Of a DNA stretch of 39,401 nucleotides, positions 13,428-16,017 are shown one piece after another. Position 1 is the stretch's first letter. The number at the start of each line of letters is the position of its first letter. The stretch is from UHGV virus genome UHGV-0067872. One strand, given 5' to 3'. The translations under genes were made by a program, and so were the position numbers. The DNA comes from a virus. The notes below the pieces were generated by a model. The model ran no database searches. It was not told where the DNA came from and saw nothing but the letters and a program-made list of their open reading frames with translations.

Positions 13428-13612
13428 ACGCCACAATTCAAACGATACCAGAGCTTCTTATCCAGACACGAGGCAATCAGACCGAAGTGGCGAGGATGCT
13501 TTCCTGCGCAAGAGGAACAGTGCTCAAGTACAACCGAGACAGCAAAGGCGAGCGTCACGTAATAGTTAACGGCGTCCTGATGGTCAAACAGGGCAAGAGG
13601 GGAAGACCATGA
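13424..13612 (+). CDS. ninH: NinH-like protein
   Basis: TIPELLIQTRGNQTEVARMLSCARGTVLKY parallels lambda NinH. Confidence 0.65.
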   Translation: MNATIQTIPELLIQTRGNQTEVARMLSCARGTVLKYNRDSKGERHVIVNGVLMVKQGKRGRP

Positions 13613-14232
13613 GACTCGAAAGCGTAGCTAAATTTCATTCGCCAAAAAGCCCGATGATGAGCGACTCACCACGGGCTACGGCTTCTGACTCTCTTTCCGG
13701 TACTGATGTGATGGCTGCTATGGGGATGGCGCAATCACAAGCCGGATTCGGAATGGCTGCATTCTGTGGTAAGCACGAACTCAGCCAGAATGACAAACAA
13801 AAGGCTATCAACTATCTGATGCAATTTGCACACAAGGTATCGGGGAAATACCGTGGTGTGGCAAAGCTCGAAGGAAATACTAAGGCAAAGGTGCTGCAAG
13901 TGCTCGCAACATTCGCTTATGCGGATTATTGCCGTAGTGCCGCGACACCGGGCGCAAGATGCAGAGATTGCCACGGTACTGGCCGGGCCGTTGATATTGC
14001 CAAAACAGAGCAGTGGGGGAGAGTTGTCGAGAAAGAGTGCGGAAGATGCAAAGGCGTCGGTTATTCAAGAATGCCAGCAAGCGCTGCATATCGCGCTGTG
14101 ACGATGCTAGTACCAAACCTTACCCAACCCACCTGGTCACGCACTGTTAAGCCGCTGTATGACGCTCTGGTGGTGCAATGCCACAAAGAAGAGTCAATCG
14201 CAGACAGCATTTTGAACGCGGTCACACGTTAG
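13609..14232 (+). CDS. Q: Late antiterminator Q
   Basis: 207-aa protein MRLESVAKFHSPKSPMMSDSPRATASD... matches lambda Q as I remember it. Confidence 0.9.
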   Translation: MRLESVAKFHSPKSPMMSDSPRATASDSLSGTDVMAAMGMAQSQAGFGMAAFCGKHELSQNDKQKAINYLMQFAHKVSGKYRGVAKLEGNTKAKVLQVLATFAYADYCRSAATPGARCRDCHGTGRAVDIAKTEQWGRVVEKECGRCKGVGYSRMPASAAYRAVTMLVPNLTQPTWSRTVKPLYDALVVQCHKEESIADSILNAVTR

Positions 14233-14274
14233 CAGCATGATTGCCACGGATGGCAACATATTAACGGCATAATA

Positions 14275-14317
14275 TTGACTTTTTGAATAAAGTTGGGTAA
14301 ATTTGACCCAAGAATGG
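14275..14317 (+). promoter_or_regulatory. PR' late promoter with qut element
   Basis: -35 TTGACT (14275-14280), 17-bp spacer, -10 TAAATT (14298-14303), then AAGAAT pause-inducing -10-like element. Confidence 0.6.
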
Positions 14318-14995
14318 CAGATTTATATCCGTTCACATTCTTTCAGCTTTTACCCACCTCATCTTTAAGTTCTAAGCGCACTGACATGCGCATCATAAAC
14401 TCGAGAGCACATAGGAATAGAGCCTGAGAAATATCGCTTTTGGCGACTTCTCTCGTGGTGATATTTCTATGTCAGCAGGCTCTAATATCTATGTGGTTCG
14501 CCTATGTTAAAACGTGAAGATGCATTGAGACTTTTTAATTACAATCCAGATACTGGAATTCTTACATGGAAGAATCCACCTCGGTCCTCTAGATTTATCT
14601 ATGGCGCTGTTGTTGGCTATAAAACAAATGGATATCTGCAGGTAAAACTTTATGGAATGCGGCTATATGTCCATAGAATTGCATGGCTGATGGTTTACAA
14701 TGATTGGCCAACCGATGTTATTGACCATATTAATGGTGATAGGTCTGATAACCGGATAGCCAATCTTCGTGTTGTTACTAACACTCAAAACTCATGGAAC
14801 AGCAAGATGAGGAAAAACAATTCATCTGGTGTGAAGGGGGTGACTTTTAATTCTGCTGCAAACAAGTGGGTTGGAAGAATTAGAGTTAATGGTAAAAGGA
14901 TTCATGTAGGGTGTTTTGACGATATCGAGGAGGCTAGAAAGGCAATGGAAAATGCCAGGATAAAATATCATGGTGAATTCTCCAGTATGGGATAG
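14318..14995 (+). mobile_element. Freestanding homing-endonuclease cassette inserted into the PR'/6S leader
   Basis: AT-rich block between the PR' initial transcribed region and the 6S-like sequence resuming at 14996; ATGG microhomology at both junctions; contains the HNH ORF ending exactly at the right junction. Confidence 0.5.
14504..14995 (+). CDS. HNH endonuclease with AP2 DNA-binding domain (homing-endonuclease-like)
   Basis: HNH motif HINGDRSDNRIANLRVVTNTQNSWN; AP2-like GVKGVTFNSAANKWVGRIRVNGKRIHVGCFDDIEEARKAMENARIKYHGEF. Confidence 0.85.
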   Translation: MLKREDALRLFNYNPDTGILTWKNPPRSSRFIYGAVVGYKTNGYLQVKLYGMRLYVHRIAWLMVYNDWPTDVIDHINGDRSDNRIANLRVVTNTQNSWNSKMRKNNSSGVKGVTFNSAANKWVGRIRVNGKRIHVGCFDDIEEARKAMENARIKYHGEFSSMG

Positions 14996-15125
14996 ATGGG
15001 TTAATTCGCTCGTTGTGGTAGTGAGATAAAAAGAGGCGGCGCTTACTACCGATTCCGCCTAGTTGGTCACTTCGACGTATCGTCTGGAACTCCAACCATC
15101 GCGGGCTGAGAGGTCTGCAAAATGC

Positions 15126-15186
15126 AATCCCGAAACAGTTCGCAGGTAATAGTTAGAGCCTGCATAACGGTTTCGGGATTTTTTAT
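15126..15186 (+). terminator. tR'-like rho-independent terminator (end of 6S-type RNA)
   Basis: Long hairpin AATCCCGAAAC...GTTTCGGGATT with nested GCAGG/CCTGC stem, followed by T6. Confidence 0.7.
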
Positions 15187-15210
15187 ATCTGTGCAACAGG
15201 TAAGAGCATT

Positions 15211-15609
15211 CTCCCTTATGGGGCTTGGCTTAAATGCACTGAGTGCTCTTATCGTTGTGGCAGCACAACGATAGTTTTCGTCAGAGTTGGCGACTTTGCG
15301 GGTTTTTAGAAACTGACCACAAAGATAAATGCAAACGATGATTTGATGTTGATGGCGGCCTAAGAAACCAAAATCACGGGGTCTTCCGACTCCCCGCTAC
15401 CAAATTCGGCGCACTGGCCCGGTGTGATTAATAATGGGCACCCATTCAAACGTACCCTCGGCAGGTTCGATTCCTGACTAGACCCAGATGGCGACGGGGA
15501 GGGTCCAATTGAGTGGGTAACAACGGGCATGTCGCCTTAGTAAATCCCTCAAGGGTGCGACGCATAGACCGGTACTAGCGTCGCCGTTAGCTCCACGAAA
15601 CGGAGCGCA
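15211..15609. other. ORF-free, GC-rich, hairpin-dense segment bounded by a 17-bp direct repeat
   Basis: Direct repeats CAACAGGTAAGAGCATT (15194-15210) and CAACAGGTAAGAGTATT (15610-15626); no ORF of 60 aa or more except one implausible minus-strand frame; perfect 10-bp-stem hairpin at 15250-15273. Confidence 0.3.
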
Positions 15610-16017
15610 CAACAGGTAAGAGTATTTGTAGAGTTCGACTCTCTACCGTGGGCTTTTTCCCGCGATGCGAGCCATAAATGCTCTTTCCGTTGTGCTGAAT
15701 TAAGCGAATGCCGGAAGCAGAACCGGATCACCAAATGCGTACAGGCGTCATCGCCGCCCAGCAACAGCACAACCCAAACTGAGCCGTAGCCACTGGTTAT
15801 CCTGAACTCATCAGTGATAGTTACGCTGCGGCCTTCTACACATGACCTTCGTGAAAGCGGGTGGCAAGAAGTTGCGCTAACAACCTCCTGCCGTTTTGCC
15901 CGTGCATATCGGTCACGAACAAATCTGATTACTAAACACAGTAGCCTGGATTTGTTCTATCAGTAATCGACCTTATTCCTAATTAAATAGAGCAAATCCC
16001 CTTATTGGGGGTAAGAC

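What the first reader, a model, noticed from the sequence alone, without database searches (positions are those of the whole stretch)
14275..15186. Homing-endonuclease cassette lodged inside the PR'-to-tR' late leader
In lambda the PR' transcript runs about 194 nt to tR' and Q loads at qut. Here the promoter (-35 TTGACT, -10 TAAATT) and the AAGAAT pause-like element are intact. About 8 nt later an AT-rich block of roughly 680 bp (14318-14995) intervenes before the 6S-like sequence ATGGGTTAATTCGCTCG resumes at 14996, and a 4-5 bp ATGG microhomology marks both junctions. The block encodes a complete HNH-AP2 endonuclease whose stop codon abuts the right junction. This would put a selfish endonuclease in the one short transcript made constitutively from PR', even without Q, and the insertion may alter Q loading or late-gene timing. 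The lambda comparison is from memory.
Basis: partly seen in the sequence, partly recalled or inferred. Interest (0 to 1): 0.62.

Follow-up and report, generated by a model that had tools for sequence, protein, structure and literature searches.

The report
Endonuclease cassette with structured leader RNA
A 683-base selfish-looking gene cassette (a folded leader RNA plus an HNH-AP2 nuclease gene) sits between a lambda-type phage's always-on late promoter and its terminator, and the same leader RNA, absent from Rfam, precedes many other accessory genes in related phages.

Summary
Relative to lambda, window 14312-14994 (683 nt) replaces one base about 2 nt after the PR' start. The lambda 6S/tR' sequence resumes at 14995. 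All 114 matching phage records lack the block. It is present at 16 of 1233 E. coli genomes that have this site, in several different prophage backbones. The ORF (14504-14995) is an intact HNH_3 + AP2 nuclease. The block is three times less diverse than its flanks, and decayed copies exist. Both fit a mobile homing-type element, but cleavage and homing are untested.

Two things were missed. The "intact" AAGAAT pause element belongs to the insert, because it co-segregates with it. Also, about 120 nt upstream of the ORF (14376-14495) form a conserved double-pseudoknotted RNA with strong covariation. Rfam has no match. Diverged copies precede Rha, KilA-N, Bro-N, P22_AR_N, T5orf172, HNH and Acb2-like genes after the lysis genes of lambdoid phages (184 phage records, 971 of 5426 E. 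coli genomes). Its basal helix covers the ribosome-binding region, so it probably gates translation.

Diverged HNH-AP2 relatives (62-86% identity) also sit directly after Q genes of other types.

The parts
13609..14232 (+). Lambda-type late antiterminator Q gene (207 aa)
   Evidence: Pfam Antiterm, E 1.5e-57. Same length as lambda Q (207 aa), and the Q end and downstream leader match lambda 44510-44795 at 96.8%.
14275..14303 (+). PR' late promoter (-35 TTGACT, 17-nt spacer holding the Q-binding region by homology, -10 TAAATT)
   Evidence: Promoter scan. 96-98% identical to lambda and HK446 PR'.
14310..14315 (+). -10-like element AAGAAT in the initial transcribed region. The last four bases are insert-derived. 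Lambda has AACGAT here.
   Evidence: Perfect co-segregation of GA with the insert and of CG with the insert-free state. Its role as a sigma70 pause inducer is from memory of the lambda literature.
14312..14994 (+). The whole inserted cassette (683 nt)
   Evidence: Indel against lambda and 114 phage records. Present in 16 E. coli genomes at 98.5-100% identity. GC 0.40. Nucleotide diversity 0.009 against 0.029 in Q.
14312..14375 (+). 5' spacer of the cassette. Loosely conserved with the start of the late leaders in L023-L027. It becomes the first ~65 nt of the transcript.
   Evidence: Sequence comparison. A small 5' hairpin is predicted.
14376..14495 (+). Conserved double-pseudoknotted leader RNA. 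P0 14376-80/14387-91. PK1 14381-86/14470-75. PK2 14401-07/14450-56. P1 14408-26/14476-95 (14484 bulged). P2 14427-37/14458-68.
   Evidence: A1: 98.3% of cells paired and 8 pairs with compensatory change. A3: 24 of 35 nested pairs compensatory, 0 of 500 shuffles as high. 8 distinct PK1 and 12 distinct PK2 duplexes. CM R1 scores 143.5 bits here. No Rfam hit.
14469..14510 (+). Short upstream ORF (13 codons). Its AUG lies in the PK1 strand and its stop overlaps the HNH start (AUGUUAA). It is kept in L023 and L024, and fused in frame to HNH in L025.
   Evidence: Read from the sequence. Translation and coupling are inferred.
14504..14995 (+). HNH_3 + AP2 endonuclease gene (163 aa; RefSeq WP_000919140.1 in relatives)
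   Evidence: Pfam. Invariant D74 H75 D82 N83 R84 N87 R89 N99. Alignment with the I-HmuI HNH motif. Annotated as HNH endonuclease in 16 genomes.
14995..15186 (+). Lambda-type 6S leader from GATGG onward, with the tR' hairpin (15126-15180) and U-run
   Evidence: 96-98% identity to lambda. Fold -38.7 kcal/mol, z -5.3.
14418..14426 (+). First copy of the 9-bp direct repeat TAGAGCCTG (second copy at 15154-15162). Deletion between the two copies reproduces the L002/L003 leader.
   Evidence: L002 keeps 14312-14426 and then runs straight into CATAACGGTTTCGGGATTTTTTAT.
15154..15162 (+). Second copy of the TAGAGCCTG repeat, inside the tR' loop
   Evidence: Sequence. Alignment.

Best explanation
The block is a free-standing homing-endonuclease-type cassette that has invaded the lambda-type late leader about 2 nt after the PR' start. 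It has three parts: a 64-nt spacer, a ~120-nt double-pseudoknotted leader RNA, and an HNH_3-AP2 nuclease gene that ends exactly at the junction. Shown: the precise indel, the domain content, the RNA covariation, the spread across backbones, and the decayed copies. Inferred: PR' is always active, and no terminator lies before tR'. A lysogen should therefore make a ~877-nt RNA carrying the nuclease gene in place of the 194-nt 6S RNA, and Q-modified polymerase should read through it during lytic growth. The leader RNA buries the ribosome-binding region in helix P1. In this lineage it also buries the AUG of a coupled upstream ORF in PK1/P2, which would keep nuclease translation low or conditional. 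When it is made, the nuclease nicks or cuts cassette-free late leaders of related phages. Repair from the cassette-bearing copy uses Q/PR' homology on the left and 6S/tR' homology on the right, and this copies the cassette in. The cassette brings its own -10-like AAGAAT element, so Q loading can persist.
For: Precise presence/absence polymorphism: 0 of 114 phage records and 16 of 1233 E. coli genomes. The same cassette occurs with at least four different downstream contexts and with different nin, replication and packaging modules. Diversity is 0.009 in the cassette against 0.029 in Q and 0.027 in the promoter, among 25 haplotypes. Flanking SNPs as close as 4 nt to the left junction vary among carriers. 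Decay series: an in-frame deletion (L031, L038), frameshifts (L035, L042, L049), and a deletion between 9-bp repeats (L002, L003). HNH_3 and AP2 domains with invariant catalytic residues. HNH-AP2 is a recognised HEG family (PMC10448857). Relatives at 62-86% identity all sit 247-271 bp after Q genes of other types. ES18 is an insert-free relative of one of these, and homology ends right after its -10. No + strand terminator lies inside the cassette, and tR' is intact. PR' is always active in lysogens (PMC7547250). RNA structure. The SD-like bases lie in the 3' strand of P1 in every variant.
Against: No cleavage, homing or expression data exist, and the target site is unknown. Ordinary homologous recombination between mosaic lambdoid phages could also move a Q-leader module that carries a passive insert. 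The low diversity could partly reflect constraint on the RNA and the ORF. There is no recognisable SD before the HNH AUG in the window. Rho or RNases might prevent the full PR' transcript from being made in lysogens. The function of the leader RNA is inferred only from its position. Whether Q still loads on the altered initial transcribed sequence is untested.
Confidence: 0.55

Rival explanations
1. The cassette is a passive moron-like passenger. It arrived once by illegitimate recombination at GA(A)TGG microhomology and now spreads only because the Q-PR'-leader module is shuffled among lambdoid phages by ordinary homologous recombination. The nuclease is inactive or irrelevant to the spread.
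For: Microhomology at both junctions. Lambdoid mosaicism is pervasive, and the flanking modules differ among carriers. Occupancy is low at 1.3% of sites. Several copies are decayed.
Against: The cassette is three times less diverse than the Q gene next to it, which linked co-transfer of the whole module does not predict. The ORF is intact with invariant catalytic residues in most copies. A whole subfamily of diverged homologs keeps the same position behind different Q types.
Confidence: 0.2
2. The nuclease is a domesticated exclusion or defence function. The prophage expresses it from constitutive PR' to cut superinfecting relatives that lack the cassette. This benefits the prophage or host rather than only copying the element.
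For: Placement upstream of tR' gives Q-independent transcription in lysogens (PMC7547250). The same leader RNA precedes an Acb2/Tad1-like anti-defence gene and antirepressor-like genes. HEGs are known to mark exchange boundaries and to mediate exclusion between phages (PMC10448857).
Against: Mechanistically this overlaps with homing and cannot be separated from it here. The leader RNA seems built to limit translation. Frequent decay and loss argue against strong selection for the protein.
Confidence: 0.15
3. The block is an RNA-level element such as a group I intron or a self-cleaving ribozyme cassette. It removes itself or processes the late transcript, which restores a functional leader.
For: A highly structured, pseudoknotted conserved RNA lies next to a nuclease ORF. 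Phage HNH genes are often intron-borne. Ribozymes flank genes in prophages (PMC3088659).
Against: No hit to the group I, group II, hammerhead, pistol, hatchet, twister or HDV models, even at E up to 10. The structured part lies wholly 5' of the ORF, and the ORF ends at the junction, so no room is left for a 3' intron core. The same RNA precedes ordinary genes at intergenic sites where nothing needs splicing.
Confidence: 0.05

Closest known systems
HNH-AP2 homing endonucleases (Magnani et al. 2004; 'IPA-HNH' HEGs of ICP1-like phages, PMC10448857; HNH-AP2 genes of Xanthomonas phages Xp10/OP1, PMC2248197)
   Same: The same two-domain layout, with an N-terminal HNH_3 and a C-terminal AP2 DNA-binding domain. 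Small size, free-standing, phage-borne, and a presence/absence polymorphism between close relatives.
   Different: It lies in a non-coding regulatory leader, between a constitutive promoter and its attenuating terminator, rather than between or within structural or replication genes. It also carries a conserved pseudoknotted 5' leader RNA.
I-HmuI (PDB 1U3E), HNH nicking homing endonuclease of Bacillus phage SPO1
   Same: The catalytic motif aligns: vDHkdGnkdnNlstNLRwvTqkiN with viDHinGdrsdNriaNLRvvTntqN.
   Different: Only a weak overall match (E 0.66). I-HmuI is encoded in a group I intron and uses different DNA-binding modules, not AP2.
Lambda PR'-qut-6S RNA-tR' late leader, and the StxS small RNA of Stx phages (PMC7547250)
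   Same: The same promoter, Q-binding region, 3' leader and tR' (96-98% identity to lambda). The same logic of a constitutive short transcript that ends at tR'.
   Different: The transcript would be ~877 nt and protein-coding instead of 194 nt. The initial transcribed sequence from about +3 is replaced, including the pause site.
T4 I-TevI and other phage HEGs whose translation is held back by RNA secondary structure over the ribosome-binding site (recalled from the literature, not checked here)
   Same: A selfish nuclease gene embedded in host-phage transcription, with an RNA structure covering its translation start.
   Different: Here the structure is a large, conserved double pseudoknot shared with many non-nuclease genes, not a simple local hairpin.
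Phage morons (accessory gene units inserted between late genes of lambdoid phages)
   Same: The sister cassettes (leader RNA plus a Rha, KilA-N, Bro-N, P22_AR_N, T5orf172, HNH or Acb2-like ORF) sit between R and Rz or after Rz as discrete added units.
   Different: No promoter of their own was recognised by eye in the short stretch between the terminator and the RNA (not scanned). Instead they have an upstream terminator and a shared structured leader, which implies dependence on antiterminated read-through.

Membership tests
HNH (His-Me finger) endonuclease, Pfam HNH_3 | Profile match over the beta-beta-alpha-metal motif | tested here: met
   PF13392, E 5.7e-17, 61.5 bits against a cutoff of 24.8, covering profile positions 2-45 of 46.
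HNH (His-Me finger) endonuclease, Pfam HNH_3 | Catalytic His (in a DH pair) and Asn residues conserved | tested here: met
   D74, H75, N87 and N99 are invariant and N96 is nearly invariant in 28 homologs. The motif aligns with I-HmuI.
HNH (His-Me finger) endonuclease, Pfam HNH_3 | Metal-dependent DNA nicking or cleavage activity | not testable with these tools
   Needs purified protein.
HNH-AP2 homing endonuclease family | C-terminal AP2 DNA-binding domain after the HNH domain | tested here: met
   PF00847, 33.6 bits against a cutoff of 33.3, residues 108-157. Weak matches to plant AP2/ERF structures.
Free-standing homing endonuclease gene | Precise presence/absence polymorphism at one site between otherwise homologous genomes | tested here: met
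Free-standing homing endonuclease gene | Element younger than, and spread across, diverged flanks; degenerate copies present | tested here: met
   Diversity 0.009 against 0.029. Several backbones. Decayed copies.
Free-standing homing endonuclease gene | The enzyme cleaves the element-free allele near the insertion site and drives unidirectional gene conversion | not testable with these tools
The target is unknown.
Group I intron with an internal HEG | Intron catalytic core (P3-P9) flanking the ORF | tested here: not met
   No Rfam intron hit at E up to 10. The ORF stop lies at the right junction, which leaves no 3' core.
Lambda-type PR'/qut/tR' late control region | Q gene, PR' hexamers, Q-binding spacer and tR' terminator homologous to lambda | tested here: met
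Lambda-type PR'/qut/tR' late control region | Native initial transcribed region (AACGAT element and the +16/+17 pause sequence) | tested here: not met
   Replaced from 14312 onward. The element reads AAGAAT.
Any described RNA family (Rfam 15) for the leader RNA | Covariance-model match | tested here: not met
   Only chance-level hits for the window, L007, L021 and six other loci.
HK97 gp74-type HNH (terminase-associated) | Sits next to the terminase and cos-packaging genes; small HNH without a DNA-binding domain | tested here: not met
   It lies after Q, carries AP2, and occurs in P22-like headful packagers. HK106 carries a separate gp74-like HNH.

The most novel reading that the evidence does not exclude
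The ~120-nt double-pseudoknotted leader is a new class of cis-acting riboregulator: a ligand-, factor- or RNase-gated switch, or possibly a ribozyme. It would control a whole guild of late-operon accessory and selfish genes in lambdoid phages (Rha, KilA-N, Bro-N, P22_AR_N, T5orf172, HNH-AP2, Acb2-like). The HNH cassette would use it to stay silent while riding the constitutively transcribed PR' leader of a prophage.
Probability: 0.35. Interest if true: 0.8.

Novelty: new variant of a known kind. Interest (0 to 1): 0.66.

Why it matters
The PR'-qut-tR' leader is a textbook antitermination switch. A natural allele has its transcribed region replaced from about +3 by a 683-nt coding cassette. That allele is a ready-made test of how much of the initial transcribed sequence Q loading needs, and of what happens when the constitutive 6S transcript becomes an mRNA for a nuclease. 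The leader RNA may matter more widely. It is well supported by covariation, is found in about 18% of complete E. coli genomes and in Stx phages, is absent from Rfam, and sits in front of antirepressor-like, homing-nuclease and anti-defence genes. Working out what it senses or how it gates translation could explain how lambdoid phages time these accessory genes.

Tried and rejected
(1) Composite insert. The first 109 nt of the block also occur without HNH in three E. coli prophages. I first read this as an alternative ancestral leader. I rejected that reading because a deletion between the 9-bp repeats TAGAGCCTG (14418-14426 and 15154-15162) reproduces the L002 leader exactly. In addition, the tRNA-Asn/Thr context of L002 and L003 matches the insert-bearing loci L015-L018, and the 109-nt segment is absent from all 50,697 phage records.

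(2) Group I intron, hammerhead, pistol, hatchet, c4 antisense RNA, STnc100/PasD and StxS-like families. No Rfam hits were found. The pistol-like topology fails because PK1 pairs with the 3' side of the internal loop.

(3) Protein-anchored scan of species-representative genomes with the single protein. It found nothing. A DNA-pattern scan succeeded instead. Three pattern hits (Treponema L056 and L071, Limimaricola L061) are chance matches and were dropped.

(4) HK97 gp74-type packaging HNH. Rejected on context and domains.

(5) Literature searches for this insertion or this RNA. They found the HNH-AP2 family and PR'-derived small RNAs, but no description of either feature. This is absence within the held library only.

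(6) Look-ups of P0008 and P0009 contexts failed because they are not on record.

Full report
**What is there.** Window 13609-14232 encodes a lambda-type Q antiterminator (Pfam Antiterm, E 1.5e-57). A PR'-like promoter follows, with TTGACT at 14275 and TAAATT ending at 14303. A megablast of 14233-15200 against 50,697 phage records found 114 matching records. None contains the middle ~680 nt. Lambda, HK630, HK446, Kapi1 and others match as two pieces spanning 272-286 bp at 96-99% identity.

Direct alignment places the difference precisely. Sequence is shared through ...TTTGAC(C/T)CAA (to 14311). Window 14312-14994 (683 nt) then stands where lambda has a single C. GATGGGTTAATTCGC... resumes at 14995 and runs through an intact tR' hairpin and U-run at 15126-15186 (fold -38.7 kcal/mol, z -5.3).

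The junctions share GA(A)TGG/ATGG microhomology.

**One correction to the observation.** Lambda and every insert-free relative read AACGAT. Every insert-bearing copy and its derivatives read AAGAAT. These bases belong to the insert. If lambda's +1 is the first A of AACGAT (from memory), the cassette begins at about +3 and replaces the +16/+17 pause sequence as well.

**The gene.** ORF 14504-14995 (163 aa) matches HNH_3 (E 5.7e-17) and AP2 (33.6 bits, just above the 33.3 cutoff). In an alignment of 28 homologs at 38-86% identity, D74, H75, D82, N83, R84, N87, R89 and N99 are invariant. The motif viDHinGdrsdNriaNLRvvTntqN aligns with that of the nicking homing endonuclease I-HmuI. HNH-AP2 is a recognised homing-endonuclease family (PMC10448857, citing Magnani 2004). 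The TAG stop straddles the right junction.

**Is it an insertion, and is it mobile?** The site occurs in 1233 of 5426 complete E. coli genomes, and 16 of them carry the block at 98.5-100% identity. IMG/VR adds about 20 more contigs. Carriers differ in several ways:
- Their nin regions differ (RusA/DUF1364 against NinG/phosphatase).
- Their replication genes differ.
- Their packaging genes differ (P22-like PBSX terminase against nohD-type).
- At least four different sequences follow tR', including a tRNA-Asn/Thr type.

Among 25 distinct carrier haplotypes, nucleotide diversity is 0.009 in the block. It is 0.029 in the adjacent Q gene and 0.027 in the promoter stretch. SNPs as close as 4 nt to the left junction segregate among carriers. 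The block is therefore younger than the divergence of its flanks and has entered, or been converted into, several backgrounds.

Decayed copies exist:
- An in-frame internal deletion leaving 54 aa (L031, L038).
- Frameshifts (L035, L042, L049).
- A deletion between the 9-bp direct repeats TAGAGCCTG (14418-14426 and 15154-15162). It leaves only the first 115 nt of the block fused to the 3' half of tR' (L002, L003).

This invade, decay and loss series is what a homing-endonuclease gene is expected to show. Cleavage and homing themselves were not and could not be tested here.

**The position is a family trait.** The closest diverged homologs are P0002 (86%), P0003 (74%), P0004 (66%) and P0006 (62%, Xenorhabdus bovienii). 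All lie 247-271 bp downstream of a Q-family gene of a different length (254-276 aa). At 48% identity (P0012) the context is different. For the 254-aa Q type, phage ES18 is an insert-free relative. Its homology to the HNH-bearing contig ends immediately after the -10 hexamer. Behind two different Q types, then, the cassette begins at the downstream edge of the late promoter.

**A structured RNA inside the block.** The five diverged cassettes share a highly conserved non-coding stretch just upstream of the ORF. A pattern search for it found 24 viral contigs and 20 Xenorhabdus loci. Many of these have no HNH gene.

In window coordinates the structure is:

| Element | Coordinates |
|---|---|
| Hairpin P0 | 14376-80 / 14387-91 |
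| Basal helix P1 | 14408-26 / 14476-95 |
| Helix P2, stacked on P1 | 14427-37 / 14458-68 |
| PK1 (P0 loop with the strand between P2 and P1) | 14381-86 / 14470-75 |
| PK2 (upstream strand with the P2 apical loop) | 14401-07 / 14450-56 |

The evidence for this structure is as follows:
- On 28 distinct sequences, 98.3% of cells pair and 8 pairs show changes on both sides. No shuffle out of 500 reaches this, and slid controls give 0-4 such pairs.
- A covariance model built from P0, P1 and P2 only found diverged copies at 29-69 bits.
- On that wider set of 27 distinct sequences, 24 of 35 nested pairs have compensatory changes. Slid controls give 3-7. This alignment is model-fitted, which biases the count upward.
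- The two pseudoknots were not in the model. They appear as 8 and 12 different complementary duplexes, for example CUGACA/UGUCAG, UCUCAC/GUGAGA, UUCUCG/CGAGAA and CCGCA/UGCGG. Own-partner complementarity averages 5.9 and 6.5 bp, against 3.3 and 4.2 bp for mismatched partners.
- Rfam 15 has no match, even at E up to 10 on short slices.

**Where else the RNA occurs.** The diverged copies lie between R and Rz (Xenorhabdus) or just after Rz (E. coli, Salmonella, Klebsiella, Enterobacter and Stx phages). In the copies inspected, a rho-independent terminator lies directly upstream. Each copy sits directly in front of one ORF. The ORF types are Rha, KilA-N (+P63C), Bro-N, P22_AR_N, T5orf172/MUG113 (HK106 gp64), another HNH_3 (phage Dewey, 39% identical to the window protein) and an Acb2/Tad1-like protein.

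By blastn alone, one variant is found in 184 phage records and another in 971 of 5426 E. coli genomes. Many HNH carriers hold two copies, one before HNH and one after Rz. The window holds only the first.

In every variant the SD-like bases 5-14 nt before the start codon form the 3' end of P1. In the window lineage there is also a 13-codon upstream ORF. It starts at an AUG inside the PK1 strand (14469) and stops overlapping the HNH AUG.

**Most likely mechanism.** The block is a "leader RNA + ORF" cassette of the kind that normally sits among the lysis genes, where it is reached only by Q-antiterminated transcription. Here the payload is a homing-type nuclease, and the cassette has moved to the one place upstream of tR'. 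PR' is always active in lysogens (PMC7547250), and no + strand terminator-like site lies in the block. A lysogen should therefore make a ~877-nt PR'-tR' RNA that carries the gene, with the leader RNA limiting its translation. The nuclease would then cut cassette-free leaders of related phages and be copied in by repair. These last steps are inference.

Q loading is probably retained, on indirect evidence only. The arrangement recurs behind several Q types, the cassette supplies a -10-like AAGAAT, and the deletion derivatives keep the cassette's 5' end.

**Rivals.** Four alternatives were considered.
- A passive passenger moved by module shuffling. This is disfavoured by the diversity contrast and by the conserved position of diverged homologs.
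- A domesticated exclusion nuclease. This overlaps mechanistically with homing and is not separable here.
- An intron or ribozyme element. There is no model hit, no room for a 3' core, and the same RNA sits at plain intergenic sites.
- A packaging HNH of the HK97 gp74 type. This is excluded by context.

**Novelty.** The nuclease family and the homing logic are known. I found no description of this insertion site, of its recurrence behind Q genes, or of the leader RNA in the held literature or in Rfam. Both are limited sources. I rate the finding a new variant of a known kind. Its more novel component is the RNA, whose function is open.

Noticed in passing
window 15260-15678: A second indel lies downstream of tR'. 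It is a ~420-nt non-coding block absent from lambda and from most carriers, and present in L013 and L045. Homologs at 75-81% identity lie just after the HNH cassettes of L023 and L025. The block contains a tmRNA-like tag template, AUAAAUGCAAACGAUGAU...GCGGCCUAA, which reads ANDDLMLMAA-stop. L023 reads ANDDQFLAVA and L025 reads ANEEVYLAVA. It gives sub-threshold Rfam tmRNA and tmRNA_permuted hits (9-23 bits). ARAGORN finds no tmRNA.
   Followed up: partly
L002 4001-4135; L003 3900-4075: These are deletion derivatives of the cassette. They keep 14312-14426 fused to the 3' half of tR'. In L002 the former PK2 strand CUCGAGA is predicted to pair with UUUCGGG ahead of the U-run, which would form a makeshift terminator. 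L003 has also gained a 46-nt GC-rich hairpin insert and lost 7 nt (CATAACG) of the tR' region.
   Followed up: partly
L007 7960-8102, L015 5309-5451, L017 5309-5451, L031 8826-8969, L035 3993-4135, L049 4161-4303, L053 1911-2053: Many HNH-carrying prophages hold a second, diverged copy of the same leader RNA after Rz. Where the gene was annotated, it lies in front of a Rha family gene (L007, L015). The window has no second copy.
   Followed up: yes
L066 1140-1520 (Xenorhabdus beddingii): The leader RNA directly precedes an 80-aa ORF that matches the Acb2/Tad1 hairpin domain (anti-CBASS/anti-Thoeris sponge family; E 4e-14). This links the RNA to anti-defence genes as well as to DNA-binding and nuclease genes.
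   Followed up: partly
L027 1940-2012: In X. bovienii a tRNA gene (57.6 bits) overlaps the last codons of the HNH-AP2 ORF (1385-1954). The cassette's right end abuts a tRNA there. A terminator-like hairpin lies between the late promoter and the leader RNA, so in that phage the cassette is downstream of the first terminator.
   Followed up: no
L078 1537-2160 (phage HK106); L080 1133-1817 (phage Dewey): In isolated, sequenced phages the leader RNA precedes a T5orf172/GIY-YIG-like gene (HK106 gp64) and an HNH_3 gene (Dewey CDS0070), both right after Rz. Nuclease payloads therefore recur in this cassette type.
   Followed up: partly
window 14271: The window alone has A where all 22 compared relatives have G (CATAATATTGACT against CATGATATTGACT), 4 nt upstream of the PR' -35 hexamer.
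   Followed up: no
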